From a virus (taxonomy: Duplodnaviria > Caudoviricetes), in the IMG/VR virus record IMGVR_UViG_3300042363_001587, positions 1-24,247 of that record: a stretch of 24,247 bases of DNA. One strand, written 5' to 3'. The position numbers and the translations under genes were made by a program. The notes below the pieces were generated by a model. It had not been told where the DNA came from and ran no database searches. It saw only the letters and a list, made by a program, of their open reading frames with translations. Shown piece after piece: positions 2,479 to 21,397 of the stretch. Positions within the stretch are counted from its first letter, which is position 1, and the number at the start of each line of letters is the position of its first letter.

Positions 2479-3033
2479 TCAGGTCTCCGGGGCGCCGAGC
2501 GCCCACGTATCTGTGGCGGTAAAGGGGATCACGAGCGCCAATGCGACTTGGCCGGATCCCGGAACGGGTTCCTGTGTCAGCAGCGACAGCTGCGACGGCA
2601 GGCTGAAGTACTGTCCTTCGAGCTGCAGGCCATCGGTGCGAAGCGTGCGGAACGCCGTGTTCAGGCAGGACCGAACCGCGCGCATGATGCGGTGTGCGGC
2701 GGCCAGAGCGCCCGCATTCTGTCCGTCCGTCGCAACGCCCACGAGGAGCACCACGATGGTGGCCGTGTCTTCCACCGGATCACTCGACATCGGCGATCCG
2801 GCGATCTGCAGCTCTTCACCGACGTTGATCTGCAGGGCCCAGAGATCGGGTATGACGCCTTCCACCGGTGCGGCTCGTGCGACCCAGTCTTCATCGACGG
2901 CGTTGAACACGGCCACTTCCGGCGGCTCGGCGTCGCTCTCACGCCGCGGGACGAGCACCCGCAACGCATTGACGCCGTTCTCCGAGTCCGCGAGGACCTC
3001 CGCCACCCAGCGAGGCAGGGCAGGGGCGATCAT
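2479..3033 (-). CDS. Putative tail terminator / neck protein (gpU position)
   Basis: 184 aa, ATGA-coupled to the upstream gene, immediately before the tail tube gene. Synteny only. Confidence 0.5.
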   Translation of the reverse strand: MIAPALPRWVAEVLADSENGVNALRVLVPRRESDAEPPEVAVFNAVDEDWVARAAPVEGVIPDLWALQINVGEELQIAGSPMSSDPVEDTATIVVLLVGVATDGQNAGALAAAHRIMRAVRSCLNTAFRTLRTDGLQLEGQYFSLPSQLSLLTQEPVPGSGQVALALVIPFTATDTWALGAPET

Positions 3034-3350
3034 GCGCGCTTGACCTGCAGGACGTAGAAGTCGAAGAGCGATGTCGGACGTGCGAGCGGTTGATCAATCA
3101 CGTACGACACACCGCGCGAGGGGATCGAGACCGTGAGGCCCATCACCGTGGCCAGCCCAGCAAACGCCCCGCGCTTCACCTTGAGTACAAGCCGCTGCGA
3201 CTGCGTCGTCTGCCCGGCGGTCTCCTGCTCGAGCACGACGTCGTCCAGCAGCCCACGCTTCACGGTGGGCGCTGCGGTGATCTCCAGATCCTCGCCGAAG
3301 TCGTCGAGGATCTGGTCTGCGTCACCAGGCTGAAACGGAGAAGGGCTCAC
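3030..3350 (-). CDS. Putative head-closure / head-tail joining protein (FII-like), ~106 aa
   Basis: Start re-called at GTG 3350, just after the capsid stop at 3365. MSPSPFQPGDADQILDDFGEDLEIT...YVIDQP is a small beta protein in the FII position. Confidence 0.6.
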   Translation of the reverse strand: MSPSPFQPGDADQILDDFGEDLEITAAPTVKRGLLDDVVLEQETAGQTTQSQRLVLKVKRGAFAGLATVMGLTVSIPSRGVSYVIDQPLARPTSLFDFYVLQVKRA

Positions 3351-3364
3351 GGTCTCGCGTCTGC

Positions 3365-4651
3365 TTAGGAGGCGTTCAGCACCTTGAGGACACCGCACGC
3401 GTTGACGCGGCGCGGTACCACGAGCGGAGCCGACTGCGACATGATCCAGCGCACTGACGGGTCCGGCGTCACCCACGACTTCGGGAAGATCTCCAGCGCC
3501 TGCATGCCGGCTTCTTCGTCCTGAATCGCGCCCTGATGTTGCACGCCTTCGATCGCACCGACGCAGAGGGCATGGCCGCCCGCCATCGTATTCGTTTCGG
3601 TGCCGTTCGCCGCCGTGAAGAAGCCGGTGTACAGCCAAATGCGATAGCCGCCGTACGCGCCCTTGTACTGCAACCCTTCGGCGACAGGCTCCATCGACAT
3701 GATTGTGCCGGCGTCGTACTTCGGCAGCTCGAGGTCTCGCTCGACTTTCTTGTTCTTGCGGAACGCCTTCCACGCAGCGGCATCAAGGATTACGTCAAGG
3801 ATCGGCGCGCCAGCGAGTTCGACTGTCGTCTCCGACAGATCGTCGAGGTTGTCCATCGGGTTCGAAGTGGTCTCCGACCAGCGGTTCCCACCTGTGAGGT
3901 TGTTGGCGACCGCGCTCGCCTCAAGCCGGGCACTCCGGCCGAAGTTCACCACGGTGCTCGGGTACTTGTCGCCGACGACTGTCACGCGGCCGCTGAACAG
4001 CGCTTCAAACGCCATCGCTTCCTTGCGGCGCATAATGCGGTCCATCTGATCCTGCAGCTCGTTCGCGAGCGCGAGATCGCGGCGCTGCTCCGGGCTCAGA
4101 CTGCCCCCGATCGCTTCGCCCATGCTGCGACGGAGCGCGCGGTCGGGCGTCCATCGAGCTTTCTCCTTGACGTAGGCCGGGGTGAAGGTCTCGACGCGCT
4201 GGCCGCGCATTTCCTTGACGGGTGCTTCGACCAGGGGATGCACGAACGGCGCAAGGAACCGCTGGCCTTCGTCGATGTCGAAGTGGATATACTCGTCCTG
4301 CGACTGCGTTGTGGTGCCGAAGAACGCATTCAGCAGGCCGGTGTTCGGCCGCTTGAGGTTTTCGAGAACGCTGAGCAGGGTGTTCGTGGTGAACGGCCCG
4401 ACGGACCCGACGAACAGCACGGGGGCGATCGGAAGCTCGGTGGCCACCGGCGCCAGCGCCGCCGGGGCAGTGAGGAGCGACAGCAGGCCGACGATGATCG
4501 CGAGGACGAGCAGCGGCACCAGCATCAGCAGCGAGAAAGCGCTGAAGAGGTTCGGGAGCGGCGCCGGATAGACCGGCATGGAGGCGCCGAGGGGCGCCCC
4601 GTTGAGAGTGGCGCCGAACACGCCGTGGATCTTGCGGAGCAGGATGCGCAT
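3365..4651 (-). CDS. Major capsid protein E (lambda gpE family) with N-terminal hydrophobic extension
   Basis: From residue ~86, FTTNTLL...LLNAFF, LAPFVHP, FTPAYVKEK, FPKSW and QSAPLVVP are recognisable gpE-family motifs. AGGAG precedes the ATG at 4651. Confidence 0.92.
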   Translation of the reverse strand: MRILLRKIHGVFGATLNGAPLGASMPVYPAPLPNLFSAFSLLMLVPLLVLAIIVGLLSLLTAPAALAPVATELPIAPVLFVGSVGPFTTNTLLSVLENLKRPNTGLLNAFFGTTTQSQDEYIHFDIDEGQRFLAPFVHPLVEAPVKEMRGQRVETFTPAYVKEKARWTPDRALRRSMGEAIGGSLSPEQRRDLALANELQDQMDRIMRRKEAMAFEALFSGRVTVVGDKYPSTVVNFGRSARLEASAVANNLTGGNRWSETTSNPMDNLDDLSETTVELAGAPILDVILDAAAWKAFRKNKKVERDLELPKYDAGTIMSMEPVAEGLQYKGAYGGYRIWLYTGFFTAANGTETNTMAGGHALCVGAIEGVQHQGAIQDEEAGMQALEIFPKSWVTPDPSVRWIMSQSAPLVVPRRVNACGVLKVLNAS

Positions 4652-4685
4652 GACTGAGTGATCTCCTGTGATGGCCTAGCGACGC

Positions 4686-5333
4686 TTACGCGTTGCCGAC
4701 GGGGATGAGGTGAATGCCGCGCGTGCGGAGCACGTCCCGCGCACCCGCGACCGTCAGGCCAGCCCCGATCGACAGCTGGTTTTCGCCGAACTCGCCGCGC
4801 TCATAGACGAGCACTTCGGTGGCCGCCGCCGTGGCATCCGCCGCCATCGCGACGATGCCGTGCGGACGGCTTGACCCGTCGGTCGCCGCGGCTGCGCAGC
4901 GGAGCACCGCGCCCGTTGCGGCGACGGTGATGGTGAACGCGTCACCGGCGACGAAGTCCGTCGCGCCGTCCGCGATGGTGAACACCACCGGGCCGGTCGC
5001 GGGCGTGCCGACATTCACGCGGCCGATGATCACGCCGTCCGGATCTTCAATCGCGAACGTGCCGCCGTTGGCGGCCGGTTCGATGCACACCGCGCGGTAA
5101 ACACCCGCGCGAGCATTGGTGCCGAGCGAGAGCGTGCCGATCGTGCCGTTGCCGGTGTTGCCGGCCACCGCCGCACCGACCGGCGTGGCGCTGAGCACGA
5201 GGCCGACGATGGCGCCCAGCGCCAGCGTGCCGGTGGCGAGGGTGAACTTTCGGGTTTCGACGGGCAGGTAGCCTGCAATCAGCGGAGCGCGCTGCTCCGT
5301 CGCGGAGCGGTACGAGGCGAGGGGACTGGTCAT
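4686..5333 (-). CDS. Head decoration protein (gpD-like) with inserted beta domain
   Basis: PLIAG, GAIVG, DGS..PHGI, VYERGEF and LRTRGIHL motifs; lies between protease and capsid; GGAG RBS. Confidence 0.85.
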   Translation of the reverse strand: MTSPLASYRSATEQRAPLIAGYLPVETRKFTLATGTLALGAIVGLVLSATPVGAAVAGNTGNGTIGTLSLGTNARAGVYRAVCIEPAANGGTFAIEDPDGVIIGRVNVGTPATGPVVFTIADGATDFVAGDAFTITVAATGAVLRCAAAATDGSSRPHGIVAMAADATAAATEVLVYERGEFGENQLSIGAGLTVAGARDVLRTRGIHLIPVGNA

Positions 5334-5357
5334 GATGGTCTCCGTGTGGGAGCGCGG

Positions 5358-6047
5358 TTAGCCGCGCGGCTTGCGGGCAACTGCCCGCGGGTTGAACAGC
5401 GCCGTGGTGGCGAGGATGCGTTCTGCGTCGCTCAGCCGACCACCGGCGTCCGCGATCGCGCTTACGCCACCGTTCTGTGTGAGATCGGCTTCGTCGCCGG
5501 CCAGCTGGCTGAGGCCAGCCGCACGGACACCCGTTACCTTGCCAGTGAGAAGGCGATGCGCGGCGGCTTCGGGAGTGCAGCTCGGATCGTTGACCATGGT
5601 GATCAGCGACTCCAGCGACGCCTTCGAAGCCAGCGCCAGAATGCCGGAGATGCGCTTCCGCTCTGCGGTGCGTGCCGCCGTCAGCGCCTTCTGGAATGCC
5701 GACGGCTTTGCACGGCGGGCCGTGGTCTCCTCTTCGTCGGCCTGGTCTTCGCTGGCGGTATTCTCTTCATCGTCCGCCACGTCATCGCTGGCGTCGGCGT
5801 TCTCCTCATCAGCCGGCCCAGCCGTCGCGACCTCGAGCTCGTCTTCGGCGAGCCACGCATACGCGTCTTCGCCGTCGCCTACACGCACCTGATAGAACGA
5901 GCCGTCGCGCACCTCAACGACGGTGCCGATGTCTCCCTCGGCGATGCCAACATCGCGCGTGACGAGTGAACGCACTTCCGCGTTCGCCTCGAACGCAGCC
6001 GCTACTGCTGCGGCTCGCTTTGCGCCGATCCGCTTCAGTCGCGGCAT
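5358..6047 (-). CDS. Nested in-frame scaffold protein (Nu3-like), ~229 aa
   Basis: AAAGAGGAGCCC-ATG lies in frame inside the protease gene, after the catalytic domain. The product has an acidic linker and AERKRISGIL, as in lambda C/Nu3-type scaffolds. Confidence 0.65.
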   Translation of the reverse strand: MPRLKRIGAKRAAAVAAAFEANAEVRSLVTRDVGIAEGDIGTVVEVRDGSFYQVRVGDGEDAYAWLAEDELEVATAGPADEENADASDDVADDEENTASEDQADEEETTARRAKPSAFQKALTAARTAERKRISGILALASKASLESLITMVNDPSCTPEAAAHRLLTGKVTGVRAAGLSQLAGDEADLTQNGGVSAIADAGGRLSDAERILATTALFNPRAVARKPRG

Positions 6048-7004
6048 GGGCTCCTCTTTGGTTAGTGCGGCACGTGCCGCCGTGGTGTTTTCGCCGCTCT
6101 GATCATCTGCAGAGCTGCGCCAAGTGCCGCCCGCCAACTCGGCGTGCAGCGACTCGTAGGTGCCGACGCGATCCGCGAGACCGGCGCTTACCGCACGAGC
6201 GCCAACAAGGACCGCGCCTTGGCCAAACCGCGCGTCGACATCGTCGCGGGATACCCCGCGGTACTCCGCCACTGTGTTCAGAAACACATCGGCGATGTCA
6301 TCGACCATCTGCTGCCACGCACGTCGTCCTTCGTCATCGACCGGTGGACGATTCTTCTCCGGCGTCTGCGAGCTAGTGATGACGATCTCGCGCAGTCCGT
6401 AGTTCTCGAGGTACTTCGCGGTGTCCAGATACGCGACCTGTGCACCGAGACAGCCGACAATGGCTGTTTCTGCACAGACGATCTCGTCGCACGCGGACGC
6501 GAGCCAATAGGCGGCACTGCACGCGTCTCCCTCGACAAACGCCACGATTGGCTTCTGCCCTCGTGCGGCGCGCAGAATGCGTGCGAGCTCCTGGCATCCG
6601 TTGACGTGACCCCCGGGGGAGTCGAGCGTGAGGATCAGTGCCTTGATGCCGGGGTCACTCAACGCCTGTGTGATCTCGTTCGCGAGTACATCGTAGCTGT
6701 CGTACCACCACGACAAGAACGAGGAACTGGAGACGAGCGGGCCGTAGATTCGGATCTGCCCAACGCCGTTCCTCGTCGTGAGCCGAAACGAGTACTCGAC
6801 AGATTCTTCTGTCTCACCGGACACCGCTTCGGTCGTACGCGACACCGATTCCACCGGCGTCGTCATGAAGCGTTCTGCGTCTGCGAGTACGCGCTCAAGG
6901 CCAGCGGGAGAGATTCCCCATGGCTGGCCGAGCACCGCTCCTGCCACCTTCTGCCGCTGCACGCGGCGTGCTTGGCGACGTGGTGCTGTGCTATTCCTTG
7001 GCAT
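5358..7004 (-). CDS. S49 (SppA-like) prohead protease, lambda gpC-like, ~548 aa
   Basis: LDSPGG and ACSAAYWLASACDEI motifs. Start re-called at ATG 7004, which has a GAGGAG RBS and overlaps the portal end. Confidence 0.9.
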   Translation of the reverse strand: MPRNSTAPRRQARRVQRQKVAGAVLGQPWGISPAGLERVLADAERFMTTPVESVSRTTEAVSGETEESVEYSFRLTTRNGVGQIRIYGPLVSSSSFLSWWYDSYDVLANEITQALSDPGIKALILTLDSPGGHVNGCQELARILRAARGQKPIVAFVEGDACSAAYWLASACDEIVCAETAIVGCLGAQVAYLDTAKYLENYGLREIVITSSQTPEKNRPPVDDEGRRAWQQMVDDIADVFLNTVAEYRGVSRDDVDARFGQGAVLVGARAVSAGLADRVGTYESLHAELAGGTWRSSADDQSGENTTAARAALTKEEPMPRLKRIGAKRAAAVAAAFEANAEVRSLVTRDVGIAEGDIGTVVEVRDGSFYQVRVGDGEDAYAWLAEDELEVATAGPADEENADASDDVADDEENTASEDQADEEETTARRAKPSAFQKALTAARTAERKRISGILALASKASLESLITMVNDPSCTPEAAAHRLLTGKVTGVRAAGLSQLAGDEADLTQNGGVSAIADAGGRLSDAERILATTALFNPRAVARKPRG

Positions 7005-8589
7005 CGGTCTCCTCGGTTGTCCCTTCCGGCGGCGTTTCGTTGTCGTCTGTCGGGACCGTGGCCCCGCGGCCAGCCGTGATGATCTCCGTCGGCGCGAGTC
7101 CATCCGCCACACGGCGATTCTTCTCGCGCACGAGCTGCTCGTGCACAGCCTCCCACGACTGCCCTGTGAGCTGCGGCGCCTCCAACGCTCGAGTAGAGAA
7201 CCCGGCGTCGACGCGTAGAATCGCGGCGTTCACTTCCTTGAGCGGATCGAGCTGCGTTACAGTCGGGCCGGCCCACATCGCACCGAGGTAAGCCATGCGC
7301 GTCATCGGATCTTCGAGGAAGCCCGGCGCCACGAGAAGACCGCGCTGCACGGCTTCCCAGATGATCCACTCGTAGATCGGCTGACAGAACGTCTCAACGA
7401 GCCAGTCTTGCTGCGCATCGAATGCGCGCCACGCTTCCTGCAATGCGGCGCGAGACGCCGAATAGGACGAGTTGAATTGCTTCAGGAGCAGCTCGCGCGG
7501 GATGCCGAGCGCGACGCCCATGAACGTCGAAATGGAGCTCACGAAGGGATCGAACTGCGCGTTCGGCCGCCCGGGGTTCGCGATGCTGATGTCGTCACCC
7601 GCCGGCAGTTCAACGACCGCACCTTGTCCGAGCTTCACATTGTCGCCGGCGCCGATCGGCAGCGTGTCGGCGTCCTCAAGATCCGCCAGACTCTTGCCGT
7701 CTTCGACGCTACCGGTGCGCTTGATGAATACGGTGAAGAACGAGGCGATCACCGCTGCAGCAAGCTCGGAGTCAGTGAAGCGATCCAGCTGCTTCAGCTG
7801 ACGAATGACCGGTGCGAGATACGGCACACCACGCGTCTGATTCACACGCTGCTGCTCGATGATGTGCAACACCATCGGCAGGCCGCTGCGCGACCCATAG
7901 GCCGGCACGAAGTCGTACTTCGGGAATCCCTGCCCGAAGCCGGCTTCGCTTGGATGGTGACTCGCGATGTAGAAGCCGGTGGCCGCGCCGTACTGATCCA
8001 GAACGATCCCGTCGCGGAGCGTTGGGGTGTTCATGTGCCCCGTCGGATTGCCGACACGATCCGCCTCAAGCAGCTGAATCTTCAGCGCGAGGACATCACC
8101 CGCCCGAGGTACATATCGGCGCAAGGCGAACGCATCGCCGCCAGAGAGGACGGAGCGGAGGGCCAGTCGCTGCATCTGCGGGAAGGAGTTCCTTCCGGCG
8201 ACGTCGAATCGCTTGGAGTAGGCAACCGCCTTTACGATGCGCATCGCATCGCGCTGCCATGCAGACGCTTCCTGCTCTGTCAGGCCGAGATAGTCTCGGT
8301 CGATCTGCGGCGTGGGGAGGAGGCCTCCCCCGACCACGTTGTCCAGCCGAGTGAGAAGAGCGCCCGTCGCCAAGGGCGCATTGCGCTCGAGGTCTCGGGT
8401 GCGTGCCCTGAGCGCTGGCAGGTCACCGAGGATGTCTTGATCCGGGGATCCCAACCCGGGCAGCCACGCCATCAGCTCGCGGACATCAGTGCGGGCGCCC
8501 TCGTAGCCACCGCGGCCGAAGAATGCCCGTGCTTTCGGCTTCTTCGCCTGCTGCAGGCGAGGCAGTGCAGCGCGGGTGTGGCGCTTCAC
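6991..8589 (-). CDS. Portal protein, lambda gpB family, ~532 aa
   Basis: YEGA, LRARTRDLERN, QTRGVP.LAP, YSASRA and LDPLKE motifs. The GTG at 8589 overlaps the gpW stop. Confidence 0.95.
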   Translation of the reverse strand: MKRHTRAALPRLQQAKKPKARAFFGRGGYEGARTDVRELMAWLPGLGSPDQDILGDLPALRARTRDLERNAPLATGALLTRLDNVVGGGLLPTPQIDRDYLGLTEQEASAWQRDAMRIVKAVAYSKRFDVAGRNSFPQMQRLALRSVLSGGDAFALRRYVPRAGDVLALKIQLLEADRVGNPTGHMNTPTLRDGIVLDQYGAATGFYIASHHPSEAGFGQGFPKYDFVPAYGSRSGLPMVLHIIEQQRVNQTRGVPYLAPVIRQLKQLDRFTDSELAAAVIASFFTVFIKRTGSVEDGKSLADLEDADTLPIGAGDNVKLGQGAVVELPAGDDISIANPGRPNAQFDPFVSSISTFMGVALGIPRELLLKQFNSSYSASRAALQEAWRAFDAQQDWLVETFCQPIYEWIIWEAVQRGLLVAPGFLEDPMTRMAYLGAMWAGPTVTQLDPLKEVNAAILRVDAGFSTRALEAPQLTGQSWEAVHEQLVREKNRRVADGLAPTEIITAGRGATVPTDDNETPPEGTTEETDAKE

Positions 8590-8816: not shown

Positions 8817-8859
8817 ACGCGCACACTAGGAACGCAACCAGACTTACGCCTTCTGACTG

Positions 8860-8969
8860 GTTGTCGTTTTTACAACACCCCCCTTAAAAGGGGGCAAAAA
8901 CCGTCGGTCGCTTTATAGATGGGATTGGCACGAGTTTCCGAAGTGTTGTCGTTTTCACAACACCCCCCT
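8860..8969. repeat. Two 25-bp direct repeats, each containing a palindrome (operator-like)
   Basis: GTTGTCGTTTTTACAACACCCCCCT at 8860-8884 and GTTGTCGTTTTCACAACACCCCCCT at 8945-8969 are 24/25 identical with an 85-bp period. Each contains GTTGT-N7-ACAAC. They sit in an AT-rich gap. Confidence 0.85.
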
Positions 8970-9323
8970 GCTCACGACTCGCGGACGTACGCGCCGCCCC
9001 GCTCCAGAGAGCTGCGAATCATCCACGGAACTGTCCGAATCGTCACTTCGGGCACACTCATGGCGCGAGAGGGGAACCCTGAGAAGCGCAGGGCCACCGT
9101 GCTGCGCGGTGCGGCAGAGGTATCCCTGCTCGACGAGACTAGTGAGTGCCCGCGAGACGGCAGCTCGATCAAGGTCCAAGTGCTGCTCGATGACCAGCAG
9201 TTTCAGGACACGCGCTTCGACGACGTCGAGATACTCGATGGCCGCCCGAAAGACCTGCAGCTCGCGCGGGCTCACCTTCGTATCGCTCAGAATCTGACGA
9301 AAGATCGGGATCTCGAACTGCAT
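8955..9323 (-). CDS. Winged-helix DNA-binding protein, 122 aa, with terminase-like C-terminal tail
   Basis: The ATG at 9323 overlaps the terminase TGA (TGATG). IEQHLDLDRAAVSRALTSLVEQGYL is an HTH pattern. The protein ends RPRVVSRGVL. Confidence 0.75.
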   Translation of the reverse strand: MQFEIPIFRQILSDTKVSPRELQVFRAAIEYLDVVEARVLKLLVIEQHLDLDRAAVSRALTSLVEQGYLCRTAQHGGPALLRVPLSRHECARSDDSDSSVDDSQLSGAGRRVRPRVVSRGVL

Positions 9324-11287
9324 CAGTACACGCCCTTCGAGACGACACGAGGGCGGGTGCGTGAGCGAGGCGGTGCTTGTGACGCGGTGACGGCATGAGG
9401 AGGACTGGTCAGCACACTGACCACCTCTGCCGATTCCGCCGCTGCGAGTTTTGCGAGATCCTGCAGAACACGGCTGCCTAGCGAGACTAGAGCCGCATAC
9501 GCGTACACCGTGGTGTCTAGTACTTCGTTGGCAAGATCCTTCGCCTTCTTTCGCCATACGCGAATCGGGCGCCGATTCCGGTACTCTGTCTTCAGCTCCT
9601 CTGCCGTGAGCTGCAGGAAGAACGCGGCATCGAGCCCCGCCGGGAAGTTCACGAATTCGGGGCCGCGCTCCTTTACGATCAGCCGTCCGAAGAACATGTC
9701 CTTTACCGTGTCGATGCCGACGATTCGGGAGCGGATGTTCTTGCCGCTCCGACGTCGCGTCTCCTTCGGTGGATCTGCGATCACCGGTCGCCCGCGGCCT
9801 TCCTTACCCTGAATCGGGATCACCTTCGCGCCGTTTGGGCCCACGAAGCGTCGTGCGAAGCGATGCACGTGTCCGGTCTGGTACTTCGCATCGATGCACG
9901 TGGCCGCGATATAGCGAGATCTTCCCGCCTCGTCGGTGAAGCCTTGCTGTAGGTACGCGCTGACCTCGCGCCACGTCTTCTCGAGCGCTGGGTCGCCTTC
10001 GATGATCTTCCAATCGATGACCCATGACTGCTCGCCGGCGCCGAATCCCCAGACGGTGAGGTGCACGCTGTCACCTTGCACGTCGCCGCCACAGGTGAGA
10101 AGACGGACGCCCTTCGGGACCTGAGCGCGGTACACCTCTGCACGCTGCTGCAGGAAGCTCGAGCTGACCGCCGAAGACTTCTCAGCATAAGGCAGTCCGC
10201 AGATGTTGTTGACGAAGGTGCGCATCTTCGCCGGCGAGCGCACCGCTCTGGAGAAGCGCTGGGCGATACGCGTCCACGAGATCAGCGGCGAGATGAACGC
10301 GGGAATGTGAAATCCCTCAGCAAGCCGACCGGCATGACGCGGCCGCCATTCACCTTTCGCGAGCATTCTGCTCTTCTCCCACTCGCTGATCAGGCATGCG
10401 CATTCCTCGCAGACGTACGACACCGTACCGGGTACCACCTCGCCAGCGGAGTCCTTGTCCCAAACAAAACGTGCGTCGCCGCTGCTGTTGTCGTCTCCAT
10501 CCTCCATACCGTCTCGCCAGCGCAGCACCTGCTCGTGCTCGCAGTGAGGGCAGGGCATGTACCAGTCGTTCCATGTCGATCGAGTCAGCTCGTCGTAGAT
10601 GCGAGAAGAGCCGGACACCGTCGGCGTTGATTCGAAGTACTCCTTGTAGTCCCAGAACGTCTCACCACGCGAGCGCGCGAGTTCGATGGGATCACCATCC
10701 TCGCTGAGCTCTGCGATGATGTTGTCCACCTCTGAGAACCAGATGCGCGCTGCAGAGATCGATCGGAGGTCCGACGAGGAGCGGGCCGTCAGGAGGTCCA
10801 GCGTACCGTTGGGGAACTCCTTGTGCGCGATCGCGTCATTTGAGTCACGCAGGCCAGACCGATCGAACAGTCGTGCCAGCCGGGGTGTCTCATCGATCAT
10901 GGGATCGAGACGCGTCATGGACCACCTGCGGAGCAGCTTCTCTGTAGGCCATACCGACAGCATCGGCGCCGGCGCCTCGTCCATGGTCCAGCCCACCCAG
11001 TTCTCGCCGATGGTGGTACCGGCAACCTGGGCGCCCTTCATCACAACAACGGTTTGAATCCGCGGGTCTGTAAGCGCGTCCATGATCCCCTTCAGGTAGG
11101 GGATGCGGTCGTTCCGGAACCGTCCGCCCTCGGAGCTGCTCGAGCTGGGCAGCACGCGATGCTCTTCAGCCCACGCCGCGATTGAGAGCGGCGTGCGCGG
11201 TGCGTATGCCGTCGCCGCCTCACGCTGAACATCGGCGAGCAGCTCCGAGACGCTGGTCTCGTAGGACAGTGCCGGAAGAGCCGTCAT
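9323..11287 (-). CDS. Terminase large subunit, lambda gpA family
   Basis: 654 aa with VMKGAQVAGT (Walker A), ESTPT, MPCPHC...CEEC, GGDVQ and NEVLD motifs. Confidence 0.96.
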   Translation of the reverse strand: MTALPALSYETSVSELLADVQREAATAYAPRTPLSIAAWAEEHRVLPSSSSSEGGRFRNDRIPYLKGIMDALTDPRIQTVVVMKGAQVAGTTIGENWVGWTMDEAPAPMLSVWPTEKLLRRWSMTRLDPMIDETPRLARLFDRSGLRDSNDAIAHKEFPNGTLDLLTARSSSDLRSISAARIWFSEVDNIIAELSEDGDPIELARSRGETFWDYKEYFESTPTVSGSSRIYDELTRSTWNDWYMPCPHCEHEQVLRWRDGMEDGDDNSSGDARFVWDKDSAGEVVPGTVSYVCEECACLISEWEKSRMLAKGEWRPRHAGRLAEGFHIPAFISPLISWTRIAQRFSRAVRSPAKMRTFVNNICGLPYAEKSSAVSSSFLQQRAEVYRAQVPKGVRLLTCGGDVQGDSVHLTVWGFGAGEQSWVIDWKIIEGDPALEKTWREVSAYLQQGFTDEAGRSRYIAATCIDAKYQTGHVHRFARRFVGPNGAKVIPIQGKEGRGRPVIADPPKETRRRSGKNIRSRIVGIDTVKDMFFGRLIVKERGPEFVNFPAGLDAAFFLQLTAEELKTEYRNRRPIRVWRKKAKDLANEVLDTTVYAYAALVSLGSRVLQDLAKLAAAESAEVVSVLTSPPHAVTASQAPPRSRTRPRVVSKGVY

Positions 11288-11850
11288 ACCGAGGCCTCGA
11301 GCTCAGACTGCTCTGCCGTCTCCGTGATGGCGCGCCATGCCTCGGGTAGCCGCAGATCCTTGATCTGATCTTCCGCGATCTCGGAAGCGGCCTGCACGGC
11401 CGCCGCGGTGTCCGGCAGTGAGACCAGCCGGTGAGCAAACCGACGCGGCCCTTGGCGCAACACGTTTGCGAGCTGCGTGTGCAGTGATCGGATCACGCTG
11501 ACTGCTGCACGACGCTCAACGAGCTCGCTGCGCTCCTTCCGAAGCTTCAGCTCCTTCAGCTCGATGTCGGCCAGCTGCTCCCGTTCGTAGAGCTTTTCGG
11601 GTTTGTCCTCCTTTTGCGCGAGCACAGTCTCTCTCCACCACGCGATGAACTTCGGCGCATCGAATTCAGCGGAGACGCCCGGGCGCCCGCGCGATTCGCA
11701 CGGGGCGCCCTGGTCTACCCACTTGGCAATCGTTGGGCGAGTTACGCCAAGCAACGACGCCATTTCCCCGGCATTCACCCGCAGGCGGTTTTGTCCGCCC
11801 GAAGTGGTGCCAGATGCAGCGGGTTCGGCTGGTTGCTTTCCTTTCGCCAC
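11284..11850 (-). CDS. Terminase small subunit, Nu1-like
   Basis: VNAGEMASLLGVTRPTIAKWVDQGAP...FIAWW matches the gpNu1 wHTH and is followed by a coiled coil. ATGA-coupled to the large subunit. Start (GTG 11850) is uncertain. Confidence 0.88.
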   Translation of the reverse strand: MAKGKQPAEPAASGTTSGGQNRLRVNAGEMASLLGVTRPTIAKWVDQGAPCESRGRPGVSAEFDAPKFIAWWRETVLAQKEDKPEKLYEREQLADIELKELKLRKERSELVERRAAVSVIRSLHTQLANVLRQGPRRFAHRLVSLPDTAAAVQAASEIAEDQIKDLRLPEAWRAITETAEQSELEASV

Positions 11851-11859
11851 GCGGATTAC

Positions 11860-11969
11860 AGAGAGGAAACGGGGAAACAAAACAAAAGTGAGAATATTCC
11901 GCGCCGATCACATAGACACTGATCTCGGTCTGCGGCTGCCCGATGGGTGCCCCCCCGGCGGGAGGACCC
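11860..11969 (-). other. Candidate cos site (cosQ-cosN-cosB layout)
   Basis: The minus strand has GGGTCCT (the lambda cosQ heptamer) at 11969-11963, then 21 nt, then GGGCAGCCGCAG within a TCGG...CCGA dyad (11925-11943), then an AT-rich tract up to the small terminase gene. Confidence 0.65.
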
Positions 11970-12016
11970 GCGAGTGGGACGAGACGCGCGGGCGTGGCAC
12001 GGTTTGTGGCGCGAGG

Positions 12017-12202
12017 TCACGCGCGGCTCGGGAGCTGCGGCACGAGCTGGTGATCGACCGCGTGCTGCAGTTCGTCGAGAATGTGCATGAGGTCTGCGCG
12101 TTCGCCGGCACTGAGCTTCAGCAGCGGGGCGTGCTTGAGCGTGTCTCTCCAGCGTCGCGCCTTGCCAGTCACCATTCGCGCCTCTTCTTTCGTGTTGATC
12201 AT
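12017..12202 (-). CDS. Hypothetical phage protein, 61 aa
   Basis: ATGA-coupled to the upstream gene; last ORF before cos. Confidence 0.55.
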   Translation of the reverse strand: MINTKEEARMVTGKARRWRDTLKHAPLLKLSAGERADLMHILDELQHAVDHQLVPQLPSRA

Positions 12203-12738
12203 CGGCTATGCGTTGTTGTGAGTGAGAGACTGCGTGCGCGTATCGAGCTGACCCATGGCTGCGGCTCCCATCCATCGTCCTCGAGGGGCGGAGTAGGCAC
12301 GCGTAACAACCGCTGCCCACGTTCGTCGAACCTCTCCGCCTTCCCCTGACGCTCCAGTCTCAGCACCGCCCATTTGATGGATTTCCATGGGCGGCCCGTG
12401 AGCTCCGACAGATCGCTCATTGACGTGGCACCACGCTCCTCGAGCACCTGAAGGACCAGCTGCGTGACCTGCAGGCGCGTGACGGCTTCCACGCCCTCCG
12501 TAAGCAATCGATCCGTGGGATACCAGTACGCCGTGCGCTTACTGCCCGTCTGTGCCGTTGGCGGACCAAACTCGCGACGCAACAGTCCACGACGGGCTAA
12601 GTCGCTGCAGAACGCCGACAGCGGCTGTACCGCTATCTCCTCGCTCATGTGCGCGGCGATGCGCGATGTTGGTAAACCCGGACGCTTGAGCACGTGAGTC
12701 AGGATCTGTACGGTAACGGTCTGCGACGGCTTCATCAT
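12199..12738 (-). CDS. Tandem winged-helix protein, 179 aa
   Basis: Two wHTH-like units: ILTHVLKRPGLPTSRIA...LARRGLL and VLQVLEERGATSMSDLSELTG...LERQGKA. Coupled at both ends. Confidence 0.65.
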   Translation of the reverse strand: MMKPSQTVTVQILTHVLKRPGLPTSRIAAHMSEEIAVQPLSAFCSDLARRGLLRREFGPPTAQTGSKRTAYWYPTDRLLTEGVEAVTRLQVTQLVLQVLEERGATSMSDLSELTGRPWKSIKWAVLRLERQGKAERFDERGQRLLRVPTPPLEDDGWEPQPWVSSIRARSLSLTTTHSR

Positions 12739-15270: not shown

Positions 15271-15649
15271 AATTTGTCTCCGCTTCCACACGGGGAAGAA
15301 CTAGGGTTCGAAGTTTGGTCTCGTATCGGTCGACTACGCGAAAGGCCGCCTTCTCCGCCGCGCTGTTCGGCTGGCTGTCCACGAGTCGCATCCAGTCATC
15401 CATGGCGCGCAGGTAGGTGATGACCGTCTTTTCCAACGGCGTGCTGCCGTGTCCGTCTGGTTCGTTTCGCGCGAGTGCTTCCACGCAGTGCTTTGCCCGA
15501 CGAATCGCGCCACCGATCACGAGGTCAGGGTCGTGGTCTTCGCGCGCCGGGATGGACATCATCCATTCCCGTTCGCCGCTGCAGAGCGCTGCCACCATGT
15601 CGAGGGCGGCGTCGAGCGCGCCCAAGGTTTCCGAGGCTCGGCTGCTCAC
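15260..15649 (-). CDS. Hypothetical phage protein, 129 aa
   Basis: GTGA-coupled to the upstream gene. Confidence 0.6.
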   Translation of the reverse strand: MSSRASETLGALDAALDMVAALCSGEREWMMSIPAREDHDPDLVIGGAIRRAKHCVEALARNEPDGHGSTPLEKTVITYLRAMDDWMRLVDSQPNSAAEKAAFRVVDRYETKLRTLVLPRVEAETNYGQ

Positions 15650-16413
15650 CGCGCCGTCCGCATCGCGAAGTCGTAGAAGCCGACGTAGTTCGCGCGCAGC
15701 TGTTCCTCGAGGCCACGGTTGAACGTGCCCGCGAGATCGAGGCGCTTCGGGAGCGTGATCCTCGTACGGAAGAACCAGACCGCGTCGTACTCGCTGGTCT
15801 TGCCAACCTGCCGCCGTTCGAAGATGCCGACGTTTTCTTTGACGAAGTAAAACCGCGTGTTCTTCCGGAAGCCGCCGCGCTTCTTGGCTCCGCCTTTGTA
15901 CTGATTGGCGAACTCGTTGCCGCCGGCAATCGCCCGACGCGTCGTCAGACCAATGGCGGCCGGGTAGAGACTCCGCGCAACGCCCTTGGTGGCGCTGCGG
16001 AGCCCAGGTGCTGGGATCGTGAAGCCTCCGACCGCCAGCTCATTCCGCTGCGTGCGATACAACGCGCTCGAGCTGGCCGATCCGCCGTCGTCCTGACGGA
16101 GAATCAAGGCACCGAAGCGCTTGAAGAGATCCGTCCGGGCCGCGACACCACCACCGATGATGCGCAGGGTGGCGTTCGGCTGGCCGCGCCGCGTGTCGGC
16201 TCGGTCCTCGCGCGCAAACCGTACGGCCCGACGAAACTGCGTCCGCGCCGACGCCTGGCGAATCGTCAGGTTGGTGGAGATGTGATCCTGAATGAGCTGC
16301 TGCCGCTCCTCGATCGTGCGATTCTTTGCAAGGTCGAAGGCAAAGACGTGCTGCTTCTGCTGGTTGGTGATGTCACGGAGGATCGGGCGCTCATCGAACT
16401 TGACGCGAAACAT
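15646..16413 (-). CDS. gpZ-like tail completion / neck-family basic protein
   Basis: 255 aa and Arg/Lys-rich, with FA...A.NRT near the N-terminus, GIFERR, and C-terminal AMRTAR. This pattern is typical of gpZ-like proteins found upstream of cos in gpA-type prophages. Confidence 0.55.
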   Translation of the reverse strand: MFRVKFDERPILRDITNQQKQHVFAFDLAKNRTIEERQQLIQDHISTNLTIRQASARTQFRRAVRFAREDRADTRRGQPNATLRIIGGGVAARTDLFKRFGALILRQDDGGSASSSALYRTQRNELAVGGFTIPAPGLRSATKGVARSLYPAAIGLTTRRAIAGGNEFANQYKGGAKKRGGFRKNTRFYFVKENVGIFERRQVGKTSEYDAVWFFRTRITLPKRLDLAGTFNRGLEEQLRANYVGFYDFAMRTAR

Positions 16414-19546: not shown

Positions 19547-21397
19547 TCAGGGCACCGGCCGACGCGGCACCCCGGTCTTCGGGAACTCGGTGCGCGCGTA
19601 CTCGACGAGCTCCGCCATCGCCTCCAGCGTGCGTAGATCGGAGGAGTTAAGGTACACGCGCGACCGCGTGCTGCCGCCATCGGCCGTGATCGGCTTGGTG
19701 TGGTCCCACAGCCGGTCCAACAGCCGCGAATCGTTCGTCCAGCGATCATACACATCGGCGAACCCGCGGCGCCACCCGCGAAGGGCCCGTCCCTCCTCGT
19801 GGTCGACCCCGAGGGCGCGCTCCAGCTGCTCGTTCCAATCGGCCAAAGTCCGCTTGTTCGCGGGCTTGAGCTTTGCGGCCGGCTTGGCGCGCCCGCGCGC
19901 CAAGCGTCCTTCGGGGAACAACGGGTACGTCGGCGGCGTCGTGACCCGGACGCCCGCGTCCCGGCGCTTCCGCACCTCCTGCAGCGTCTCGCGATACGCG
20001 CGCTCCAGATCGGCGAGGTAGCCGAATCGCAACTCGAAACCAATCGCGCGCTCCTGCGACGGCGCGAGCATCTGCAGTGCCGCGACCTTGGTGCCAAGCG
20101 TACGCTCATCGAGTCCGAGACGGCCCTCATCGTCGATGACGATGAGGTGATGGCGCCAGCACATCAGCATCTGTTCGGAACGGCGCTCGACGCCCAGCCA
20201 CAGCAGCAGTCGATAGCGGGGGTCCACCTCCGGCAGCCGCGCGGTGGGATGCGCCACGAGTTGGGTGCCATCCCACTGGTGCCCGACCAGAAAGGCGTAG
20301 TCGGCGCCGTTGTCGAGGTACCGCGCTTCAAAGTCCGCGTAAACCGTGTGCAAGAGGTTCTGGAGGTACGCCGACGCATCGGCTGCGAGCGGGCGCCAGT
20401 TGATAGCCACGCGACCGGCCCCGCCGGTATCGATGCCGATGTGTACCAGCCCGTTGACGATGCGAATCAGACGACGGGTCACGCGATAGGCCGCGTCCGC
20501 GCTCGAGACGATGGCGATGAGCGTTTGCATTTCAAAGCGCGGATCGCTCAAGAGACGCATGAGCGCGAGACACGTGGGTTGGGGGTAGCGCCCCCGATTC
20601 GGCCGCACGGCGGGCTCCACAATGCCGTGCAGACGCCGCGTATTGATGAGTTGTTGGTTGAGATCTTCGTCCAGCGAGAGGCCGCCGACCGGACGGAAGC
20701 GGGCGTCCTTCTTCGCGGCATAGTTGCACATCGCCCGCACGAGGAGGGCGCACAACACCGGCCACCGCGATGCGGACTGCGCCAGCGCGGCCGCCCCTTC
20801 GGCGGCCCCCTTCCCGGAGAGACCGCAGCATGCGGTATACGCCGCGTGCGTAGCGCTCTTGGCTGCCTTGAGATCACCCGCCATGACGGCGGCGTTCGCC
20901 GCACCAAGCAGGCGGCCCCATTCGTCGACGGTCACGCCGGCGGCCGTGCGCAACATGGCGGAGAGCGCGATGAGGGTGAGGTGCTGACTGCTGAACTCCG
21001 TCAGCGGAAGTCTGAGTGGCACCACCGCGGCGGCTTCGCGCATGGCGCGCAGCCACTCCTTGTCCTGCTCGCTCGAATCCGTCCGCGCCGGGGCCGTGTC
21101 CTTATCGGTCGCGTAGTCGAGCACGTCCATCATGGTCGGCACCGGTTCGGTGCGGAGGGTCAACTGCGTCATCACGAGTTCTTCTCCAAGGCGGAGCGCC
21201 TCGCGAATCGCGAGACGGTCAGGTCGGTGCCGCGCGTCGCGGAGCGACACCGTGAGGGTGAGGCGCTGATACCGGCGCCCTTCGGCGTCCCAGACACGGA
21301 CCTGCGGATAGCGGCCGCGTGGAACCTCCTCGACGACATAGCGACGGCCGTCGGGAGCGTAGGCGGAAAAACGGAGTAAGCGACGAGGACGAGGCAT
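19547..21397 (-). CDS. Divergent tyrosine recombinase / integrase, 616 aa
   Basis: Candidate catalytic set in order: R (LGVERRSEQ), K (GTK), RGWRR for HxxR, H (LWDH) and Y (SRVYL). YPLFP motif. The N-terminus resembles an arm-binding beta domain. The gene points toward the tRNA 3' end. Confidence 0.72.
   Translation of the reverse strand: MPRPRRLLRFSAYAPDGRRYVVEEVPRGRYPQVRVWDAEGRRYQRLTLTVSLRDARHRPDRLAIREALRLGEELVMTQLTLRTEPVPTMMDVLDYATDKDTAPARTDSSEQDKEWLRAMREAAAVVPLRLPLTEFSSQHLTLIALSAMLRTAAGVTVDEWGRLLGAANAAVMAGDLKAAKSATHAAYTACCGLSGKGAAEGAAALAQSASRWPVLCALLVRAMCNYAAKKDARFRPVGGLSLDEDLNQQLINTRRLHGIVEPAVRPNRGRYPQPTCLALMRLLSDPRFEMQTLIAIVSSADAAYRVTRRLIRIVNGLVHIGIDTGGAGRVAINWRPLAADASAYLQNLLHTVYADFEARYLDNGADYAFLVGHQWDGTQLVAHPTARLPEVDPRYRLLLWLGVERRSEQMLMCWRHHLIVIDDEGRLGLDERTLGTKVAALQMLAPSQERAIGFELRFGYLADLERAYRETLQEVRKRRDAGVRVTTPPTYPLFPEGRLARGRAKPAAKLKPANKRTLADWNEQLERALGVDHEEGRALRGWRRGFADVYDRWTNDSRLLDRLWDHTKPITADGGSTRSRVYLNSSDLRTLEAMAELVEYARTEFPKTGVPRRPVP

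What the first reader, a model, noticed from the sequence alone, without database searches (positions are those of the whole stretch)
8955..9364. wHTH protein carrying a copy of the terminase C-terminal (prohead-docking) tail
Seen: the terminase ends R-T-R-P-R-V-V-S-K-G-V-Y. The translationally coupled 122-aa wHTH protein just downstream ends R-V-R-P-R-V-V-S-R-G-V-L, after a flexible S/D linker. The shared residues mostly use different codons (CGC/CGT, CCT/CCG, CGT/CGA, GTC/GTG, TCG/AGC, GGC/GGG), so the match is kept at protein level and is not a fresh DNA duplication. Established: the extreme C-terminus of lambda gpA is the prohead-binding determinant, and lambda has no gene between A and W. 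Inference: this is a DNA-binding protein that also docks on portal/prohead, either a regulator titrated by procapsids (assembly-coupled feedback on head genes) or a packaging competitor or adaptor. I do not know of a described system like this.
Basis: partly seen in the sequence, partly recalled or inferred. Interest (0 to 1): 0.85.

Follow-up and report, generated by a model that had tools for sequence, protein, structure and literature searches.

The report
DNA-binder wearing terminase's docking tail
In a group of lambda-like prophages, a small predicted DNA-binding protein encoded right after the DNA-packaging motor ends in the same short peptide as the motor and sits beside conserved control-like DNA, so it likely senses empty capsids and adjusts capsid-gene output.

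Summary
Observation confirmed. The 122-aa winged-helix (wHTH) gene overlaps the terL stop and shares 9 of 12 C-terminal residues with TerL; only 3 of the 9 use the same codon, and none of 4,057 control ORF ends exceeds 5 of 12. The tail is a family trait: a profile trained on TerL tails alone puts 27 of 46 core homologues above every control end, while the linker is random. 18 of the 20 closest TerLs pair with a tailed wHTH (3 sequenced, 15 by equal contig length); 0 of 85 distant gpA loci carry the gene. New here: three loci keep two repeats 84-85 bp apart and a leaderless-type -10 box at fixed distances from the gpW start. Against: cognate co-variation is not significant (best p about 0.06), one pair disagrees, and 11 of 46 homologues have another tail. 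Binding to portal or DNA is untested. Best reading (0.45): a head-gene regulator titrated by empty-prohead portals. Hosts are probably Gemmatimonadota; G. aurantiaca encodes a homologue. Earlier scan notes report TerL tails borrowed by other proteins on other DNA; no paper found describes this module.

The parts
8955..9323 (-). 122-aa winged-helix protein gene; start overlaps the terL stop (TGATG)
   Evidence: same junction in L003 and L009
9063..9311 (-). wHTH domain, about residues 5-87 (MarR-like; predicted models also resemble RepL / phage O / HTH_36)
   Evidence: AF2 pLDDT 84-95 over residues 11-90; Foldseek; ESM Atlas
8994..9035 (-). low-confidence acidic linker, residues 97-110, not conserved
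   Evidence: pLDDT 49-63; 3.1-3.5 bits entropy per column; cognate linker identity 31 of 306
8958..8993 (-). TerL-like C-terminal tail of the wHTH (R-x-x-S-x-G-V-aliphatic)
9323..11287 (-). gpA-type large terminase
   Evidence: PF05876, PF20454; phrog_15
9326..9361 (-). TerL C-terminal tail after a variable linker; inferred portal-docking strand
   Evidence: near-invariant in 19 TerLs, including ones about 40% identical
8936..8969 (.). operator-like repeat 1 (palindrome core 8945-8961, centred about -137 from the gpW start; overlaps the wHTH's last codons in this member only)
   Evidence: only two copies in the 46.7-kb near-identical record G001
8851..8884 (.). operator-like repeat 2 (palindrome core 8860-8876, centred about -52)
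8910..8921 (-). conserved central box CAWCTATARAGC at -101/-102; role unknown
   Evidence: single forward match in each of 3 records
8823..8828 (-). TAnnnT hexamer 6 nt before the gpW start, no Shine-Dalgarno: leaderless-type promoter, inferred
   Evidence: gap 6, 6 and 7 nt in window, L003, L009; architecture as in PMC3160421
8586..8816 (-). gpW-like head-tail adaptor with a basic, beta-prone C-arm
   Evidence: phrog_118; tail at the 99.4th percentile of control ends under the TerL-tail profile
6991..8589 (-). lambda-family portal; inferred binding partner
   Evidence: PF05136; lambda gpB 8K38, E 1e-35
11284..11850 (-). gpNu1-like small terminase (start approximate)
   Evidence: PF07471 weak; phrog_57
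3030..7007 (-). downstream head genes: S49 protease/scaffold, gpD-like, gpE-like capsid, gpFII-like head closure; no room for gpFI between E and FII
   Evidence: PF14000 found in 0 of 4 partial related records
11940..12035 (.). probable genome end (cos) upstream of terS; weak hint
   Evidence: in run X5 (depth about 128) one contig stops at 11940 and the next starts at 12035

Best explanation
The gene encodes a winged-helix protein that ends in the same conserved tail as the large terminase and is likely a head-gene regulator that would be drawn off its DNA sites by docking on the portals of empty proheads. Shown: fold class, coupling to terL, protein-level conservation of the tail, co-occurrence with same-tailed TerLs, and fixed-geometry repeats plus a TAnnnT box before gpW in three loci. 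Inferred: (1) the tail binds the portal clip by beta-strand addition, as the lambda gpW C-arm does and as lambda genetics imply for the gpA C-terminus; (2) the wHTH binds the two repeats (-52 and -136, eight helical turns apart) of a leaderless promoter for gpW-portal-protease-capsid; (3) it is more likely an activator than a repressor, because the sites lie upstream of a poor -35 region; (4) its relaxed tail (aliphatic last residue in 18 of 18 pairs, against Tyr/Trp in 16 of 18 TerLs) binds more weakly than TerL. Idle proheads would then soak it up and turn head-gene transcription down, while packaging and gpW capping would release it.
For: Tail beyond chance. A TerL-only profile scores 27 of 46 core homologues above the maximum of 4,227 control ends, and 30 of 46 above the 99th percentile. 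Last 8 residues of cognate pairs are identical at 90 of 144 positions against 31 of 306 in the linkers. 18 of the 20 closest TerLs have a tailed wHTH partner; 0 of 85 distant gpA loci, 50 with the portal in view, hold the family. The same profile ranks real tails of distant gpA terminases near the top of the controls and the three cognate gpW tails at the 98.3-100th percentile. Lambda precedent: loss of the last five gpA residues abolishes prohead docking (PMC4856287), portal mutations suppress gpA mutations (PMC2366019), and the gpW C-arm augments a portal beta-sheet (PMC10721106). Repeats match at 23, 21 and 21 of 24 nt with lags 85, 84, 84 (0 of 200 shuffles each) and keep their distance to the gpW start while the intergenic length varies (138, 150, 166 nt). 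The repeat sequence differs between the window and L003/L009, as does the recognition helix (n = 3). Only TerL and the wHTH carry the tag at their ends in the window and four related records.
Against: Cognate tails do not co-vary significantly (best p 0.059-0.089 for the last 7-8 residues, 0.11-0.65 for 9-12). In the 577,018-nt pair TerL ends ...SQAWE while the wHTH keeps ...SRGVL, and in two further pairs TerL has Ser where the wHTH has Gly. 11 of 46 core homologues form a clade with a different tail (V/I-V/I-S-E-A), and their loci were not seen. 15 of 18 pairings rest on equal contig length, not on read DNA. The cis-element rests on three independent loci. The sigma-70 scan found no promoter. 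Nothing links the wHTH to the repeats except adjacency, and activator versus repressor is a guess.
Confidence: 0.45

Rival explanations
1. Packaging chaperone or adaptor, working like lambda gpFI: the wHTH would grip phage DNA (its two sites lie about 3 kb from the probable cos end, or it binds non-specifically) and tether it to spare portal sites to help the terminase-DNA complex dock.
For: Translational coupling to terL. No gpFI between E and the FII-like gene and PF14000 in 0 of 4 partial records. gpFI is proposed to act through DNA binding while bound to the prohead (PMC4856287). A 12-fold portal has more sites than the motor fills (own knowledge).
Against: The repeats are fixed relative to the gpW start and a TAnnnT box, which is promoter geometry. 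No copy lies in the cos region. The four records are only 33-70% complete, so gpFI absence is soft.
Confidence: 0.2
2. The shared tail addresses a partner other than the portal, for example a host protease (common degron), another host factor, TerS or TerL itself, or a defence sensor for which the wHTH acts as decoy. The wHTH would then be a head-gene regulator controlled together with TerL.
For: No cognate co-variation, and one pair in which the wHTH keeps the old tail while TerL has changed. Basic-then-hydrophobic C-termini resemble protease signals (own knowledge). Earlier scan notes describe shared tails on AAA+ modules.
Against: No other tagged C-terminus in the window or four related records and no AAA domain in 0 of 4 records. 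The tail scores like distant gpA tails and cognate gpW C-arms, which point to the portal.
Confidence: 0.17
3. Placeholder or gate-keeper: the wHTH would occupy portal clip sites on empty proheads and stop gpW from capping them too early, until terminase displaces it; DNA binding would be secondary.
For: gpW, TerL and wHTH tails resemble each other; lambda gpW docks by its C-arm.
Against: Does not explain the conserved recognition helix and wing or the flanking repeats; 85 distant gpA loci manage without the gene.
Confidence: 0.08
4. Neutral relic of an old insertion that duplicated the terL 3' end.
For: An insertion-duplication is a plausible origin: the gene abuts the terL stop in all three sequenced loci.
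Against: The tail is conserved while the adjoining linker is randomised. Third codon positions are diverged (4-6 of 12 identical, against 9-11 of 12 at second positions). The conserved Ser is TCG in TerL and AGC in the wHTH in two loci.
Confidence: 0.03

Closest known systems
Lambda gpA C-terminal prohead-binding domain (passages of PMC4856287 and PMC2366019)
   Same: gpA-type TerL, lambda-family portal, short C-terminal tail after a flexible linker.
   Different: Here a second protein, a wHTH, carries the tail. Portal binding was shown genetically in lambda and is only inferred here.
Lambda gpW C-arm bound to portal gpB by beta-sheet augmentation (PMC10721106, passages)
   Same: Basic, beta-prone C-terminal arm; electronegative portal bottom; the cognate gpW tails score weakly under the TerL-tail profile.
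   Different: gpW is a structural virion protein added after packaging; the wHTH has a DNA-binding fold.
SaPI1 CpmB, which copies the scaffolding protein's C-terminal RIIK motif (PMC5644958, abstract and passages)
   Same: An unrelated protein carries a copy of an assembly protein's C-terminal docking tail and competes for its site.
   Different: CpmB is satellite-encoded, targets capsid protein and changes capsid size. The wHTH is the phage's own, copies TerL and is predicted to bind DNA.
Lambda gpFI packaging chaperone (PMC4856287, passage)
   Same: Small non-motor protein proposed to link DNA and prohead.
   Different: No sequence relation (PF14000 not matched); gpFI binds the gpE lattice and has no TerL-like tail.
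MarR-family and RepL / phage O / HTH_36 winged-helix proteins
   Same: Winged-helix core.
   Different: No long C-terminal MarR dimerisation helices in the model; a disordered linker and the TerL-like tail instead.
Assembly-coupled regulators such as flagellar FlgM (recalled, not searched)
   Same: Logic of the best explanation: the assembly state of a machine removes a regulator.
   Different: FlgM is an exported anti-sigma factor; no homology, different mechanism.

Membership tests
MarR family | Pfam MarR/MarR_2 score above the curated cut-off | tested here: not met
   26.4 versus 27 bits (MarR_2) and 16.8 versus 24.6 (MarR) for the window protein; 28 of 37 family members match MarR_2 at E <= 0.01
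MarR family | Winged-helix DNA-binding core | tested here: met
   AF2 model; best Foldseek match 3bdd, E 4e-4
MarR family | N- and C-terminal helices forming the dimer and ligand pocket | tested here: not met
   Only one short low-confidence helix (89-96), then coil; TM-scores to MarR proteins 0.37-0.47 by query
gpA portal-docking tail (lambda type) | Located at the extreme C-terminus of a gpA-type TerL paired with a lambda-family portal | tested here: met
   near-invariant in 19 TerLs
gpA portal-docking tail (lambda type) | Physical binding to portal or prohead | not testable with these tools
   needs experiment
gpA portal-docking tail (lambda type) | Specificity tracks the cognate packaging module (wHTH tail follows TerL tail) | tested here: inconclusive
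   18 pairs, best p 0.059-0.089; S-to-G shared in L009 and Tyr at -6 shared in one pair; one pair discordant
gpFI packaging chaperone | PF14000 match, gene between E and FII | tested here: not met
Assembly-tail mimics (CpmB type) | Unrelated body carrying the C-terminal docking motif of an assembly protein | tested here: met
Assembly-tail mimics (CpmB type) | Encoded by a satellite against a helper phage | tested here: not met
   the gene lies inside the phage's own head operon in three loci
Shared-tag AAA+ module (earlier scan notes) | Many unrelated proteins with the tag, plus an AAA+ ATPase | tested here: not met
   only TerL and wHTH tagged; PF00004 in 0 of 4 partial records
Leaderless promoter | TAnnnT about 12 nt upstream of the start codon, no Shine-Dalgarno | tested here: met
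   first T at -12, -12, -13 in three loci; PMC3160421
Leaderless promoter | Transcription start mapped at the start codon | not testable with these tools
   needs 5'-end RNA mapping

The most novel reading that the evidence does not exclude
A phage-encoded assembly sensor: a transcription factor that uses a weakened copy of the terminase's portal-docking tail to count idle proheads and feed that count back to the head-gene promoter, matching capsid supply to packaging capacity. No such feedback loop turned up in the literature searches.
Probability: 0.4. Interest if true: 0.88.

Novelty: new variant of a known kind. Interest (0 to 1): 0.68.

Why it matters
Late-gene expression in lambda-like phages is usually pictured as open-loop (own knowledge). 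A DNA-binding protein that docks where terminase docks would give a direct route from capsid assembly to transcription. The family also offers a natural set of about 20 TerL tails, 30 mimic tails and their portals for mapping the terminase-portal interface of gpA-type motors, for which the TerL profile found no solved relative. A homologue in cultured Gemmatimonas aurantiaca may make it testable in vivo.

Tried and rejected
Co-fold of four portal stem-clip segments (236-400) with the last 31 wHTH residues: no answer, score 0.00 twice, controls not run; no evidence either way. AF2 model of TerL, to see whether its tail packs on its own nuclease domain: submitted, still unfinished at the last poll, no result. 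Genome-collection scans for the wHTH: 0 of 75 and 0 of 94 candidate stretches confirmed; metagenome scan 0 of 588; clade-II scan of viral contigs 0 of 49; annotated phages no match. My guess that the ...SQAWE TerL pairs with the clade-II wHTH was wrong: it pairs with a type-I tail. Repeats as cos or TerS sites: rejected, no copy near terS and the probable genome end lies upstream of terS. Repeats as structured RNA: no Rfam match, covariation term 0 on three sequences; the left palindrome does not pair in L003/L009. Tail explained by overlap with repeat 1: rejected, the repeat lies outside the ORF in L003 and L009. No RNA holder listed. Second read-laying on low-share runs gave only fragments. 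The wHTH tree was the quick tree only and poorly resolved, so single versus repeated gain of the tail is undecided. The motif scan of viral contigs found only three already known loci.

Full report
Setting. The window is a 24,247-nt virus record with a lambda-like head module on the minus strand: terS, gpA-type terL, the wHTH gene, gpW-like adaptor, lambda-family portal, S49 protease, gpD-like, gpE-like and gpFII-like genes. An RmuC fragment at the right end and the provirus class of three related records point to a prophage. The only named homologues come from Gemmatimonas, so the host group is inferred to be Gemmatimonadota.

Observation. TerL ends RTRPRVVSKGVY and the 122-aa wHTH, whose ATG overlaps the terL stop, ends RVRPRVVSRGVL: 9 of 12 identical, 3 of the 9 by the same codon. 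None of 4,057 distinct control ORF ends exceeds 5 of 12, and no other 12-mer of the window exceeds 6. AF2 gives a confident winged-helix core and a low-confidence linker and tail. Fold and family searches give MarR-like matches below family cut-offs; the Atlas adds RepL, phage O and HTH_36 look-alikes.

The tail is a family trait. Searches gave 27 homologues and 209 representatives, of which 150 were listed; 59 were not seen. I took as core all 27 plus the 31 best (46 distinct), and as outer the other 119. A strict pattern classed the core as 29 type I, 11 type II and 6 neither, and the outer set as 3 type I. To avoid circularity I trained a profile on 19 TerL tails only: 27 of 46 core proteins score above the best of 4,227 control ends, 30 of 46 above the 99th percentile, and 4 of 119 outer proteins above the 99th percentile. 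In 29 proteins picked by eye as ending in register (a circular choice), Arg -8, Ser -5, Gly -3 and Val -2 hold in 28, 24, 25 and 29 of 29 while linker columns are near random. In three sequenced loci second codon positions of the tail agree at 9-11 of 12 and third positions at 4-6 of 12. A neutral relic is therefore very unlikely. The quick tree places type II as one supported clade inside the core and cannot tell one gain of the tail from several.

It travels with same-tailed terminases. The order terL-TGATG-wHTH-gap-gpW-portal is read directly in the window, L003 and L009. A further 15 TerL-wHTH pairs are inferred from identical longest-contig lengths. Of the 20 closest TerLs, 18 are paired; two are not. 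The TerL tail stays the same in TerLs only about 40% identical to the window's. None of 85 distant gpA loci, 50 with the portal in view, holds the family. Similarity among TerLs does not predict similarity among wHTH cores (rho 0.09, p 0.31), which suggests module exchange.

Over 18 pairs the last 8 residues agree at 90 of 144 positions against 31 of 306 in the linkers, but cognate pairs beat shuffled pairs only at p 0.059-0.089 (7-8 residues) and 0.11-0.65 (9-12 residues), uncorrected. Two pairs share a rare change (Gly at -5 in L009; Tyr at -6). Against this, two pairs have Ser in TerL and Gly in the wHTH, and one TerL ends ...SQAWE beside a wHTH ending ...SRGVL. Power is low because the TerL tail barely varies. 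One difference is systematic: the last residue is Tyr or Trp in 16 of 18 TerLs and Leu or Val in 18 of 18 wHTHs (one anchored on its motif), which suggests a tuned-down copy.

Why the portal is the likely partner. In lambda, a terminase lacking its last five residues cannot dock on proheads (PMC4856287, passages), and portal mutations suppress gpA mutations (PMC2366019, passages). The gpW C-arm binds portal residues 320-324 by beta-sheet augmentation on an electronegative surface (PMC10721106, passages). The window portal is a clear gpB relative. The TerL-tail profile ranks true tails of distant gpA terminases among the best control ends and scores the three cognate gpW tails at the 98.3-100th percentile. 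Prompted by earlier scan notes on shared tags, I scanned the window and regions of four related records: only TerL and the wHTH end in the tag, and no AAA domain was found (0 of 4). Binding itself is untested.

Between the wHTH and gpW all three loci carry a direct repeat (23, 21, 21 of 24 nt; lags 85, 84, 84; 0 of 200 shuffles each). CAAC boxes sit at -132/-47, -131/-47 and -132/-48 from the gpW start, a CTATAnAG box at -102/-101/-102, and a TAnnnT hexamer 6, 6 and 7 nt before the start, with no Shine-Dalgarno-like word, although the intergenic length varies from 138 to 166 nt. This matches leaderless promoters of high-GC bacteria (PMC3160421, passages; that paper does not name Gemmatimonadota in its main text). 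The window's palindrome occurs only here in the 46.7-kb record G001 and the central box once per record. L003 and L009 share a TGC-N6-GCA core and an STV(S/T)R recognition helix; the window differs in both. The sigma-70 scan finds no consensus promoter, consistent with a poor -35. A probable genome end lies upstream of terS, so the repeats are unlikely to be cos.

Mechanism. I commit to an assembly-sensing regulator (0.45): made together with TerL, binding two in-phase sites upstream of the head-gene promoter, probably activating it, and titrated by free portal sites of unfilled proheads. DNA binding, promoter activity, sign of regulation and portal binding are all inferred. Rivals are a gpFI-like DNA-prohead adaptor (0.2; no gpFI found), a different shared partner such as a protease (0.17), a placeholder against early gpW capping (0.08) and a neutral relic (0.03).

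Comparison and novelty. The closest described case of a copied assembly tail is SaPI1 CpmB (PMC5644958, abstract and passages), which is satellite-encoded and not DNA-binding. Eight literature searches (listings read) returned no description of a wHTH with a TerL tail or of prohead-dependent control of head genes; the library lacks most subscription papers, including the original lambda genetics, which I saw only as cited. No supplements were read. Earlier scan notes, unchecked by me except where stated, report a kinase with a TerL tail between terL and portal and two unlike terminases sharing one tail on other genomes; no note covers this DNA or family. I rate it a new variant of tail mimicry, with a 0.4 chance of being a new kind of feedback circuit.

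Noticed in passing
P0009, P0022-24, P0026-28, P0038, P0046, P0047, P0052 (cluster includes G. aurantiaca BAH39292.1): A supported clade of 11 homologues has an insertion before the recognition helix and a different conserved tail (V/I-V/I-S-E-A, often preceded by G), whose GVV part resembles the gpW tails here. Loci could not be fetched.
   Followed up: partly
P0188 / P0049 (577,018-nt contig, paired by length): TerL tail has changed to ...RVISQAWE while the wHTH keeps the common tail; its portal would be informative.
   Followed up: partly
P0085, P0088, P0079, P0056: Distant wHTHs from the mostly tail-less outer family carry the tail or a piece of it; P0079 has it internally.
   Followed up: partly
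window 11963-11969 and 11908-11916; L009 about 2785-2844: Upstream of terS both phages share GGGTCCT and TCTATGTGA motifs, probably cos elements; TCTAT also occurs in the central box before gpW.
   Followed up: no
window 12012-12026: One contig of run X7 has 437 other letters in place of 13 just upstream of the probable cos.
   Followed up: no
window 12199-12738: A second, tandem winged-helix protein (HTH_24 at cut-off; weak Ren-like PHROG) lies just upstream of the packaging genes and could also act on late promoters.
   Followed up: no
window 19547-21397: 616-aa ORF without Pfam match whose C-terminal part looks by eye like a divergent tyrosine recombinase; near the host RmuC fragment.
   Followed up: no
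window 15646-16413: 255-aa ORF with a weak minor-tail-protein match (phrog_1924, E 0.0014) among replication genes, far from the tail module.
   Followed up: no
L012-L090: gpW-like proteins of distant gpA phages often end in R-x-I-R-V/I-T-T-S-K-G/A-F/L, which resembles the TerL tail of this phage group by eye.
   Followed up: partly
window 8880-8910; L003 and L009 equivalents: A weak hairpin with some two-sided changes lies between the central box and repeat 2; possibly a weak terminator or pause site.
   Followed up: partly
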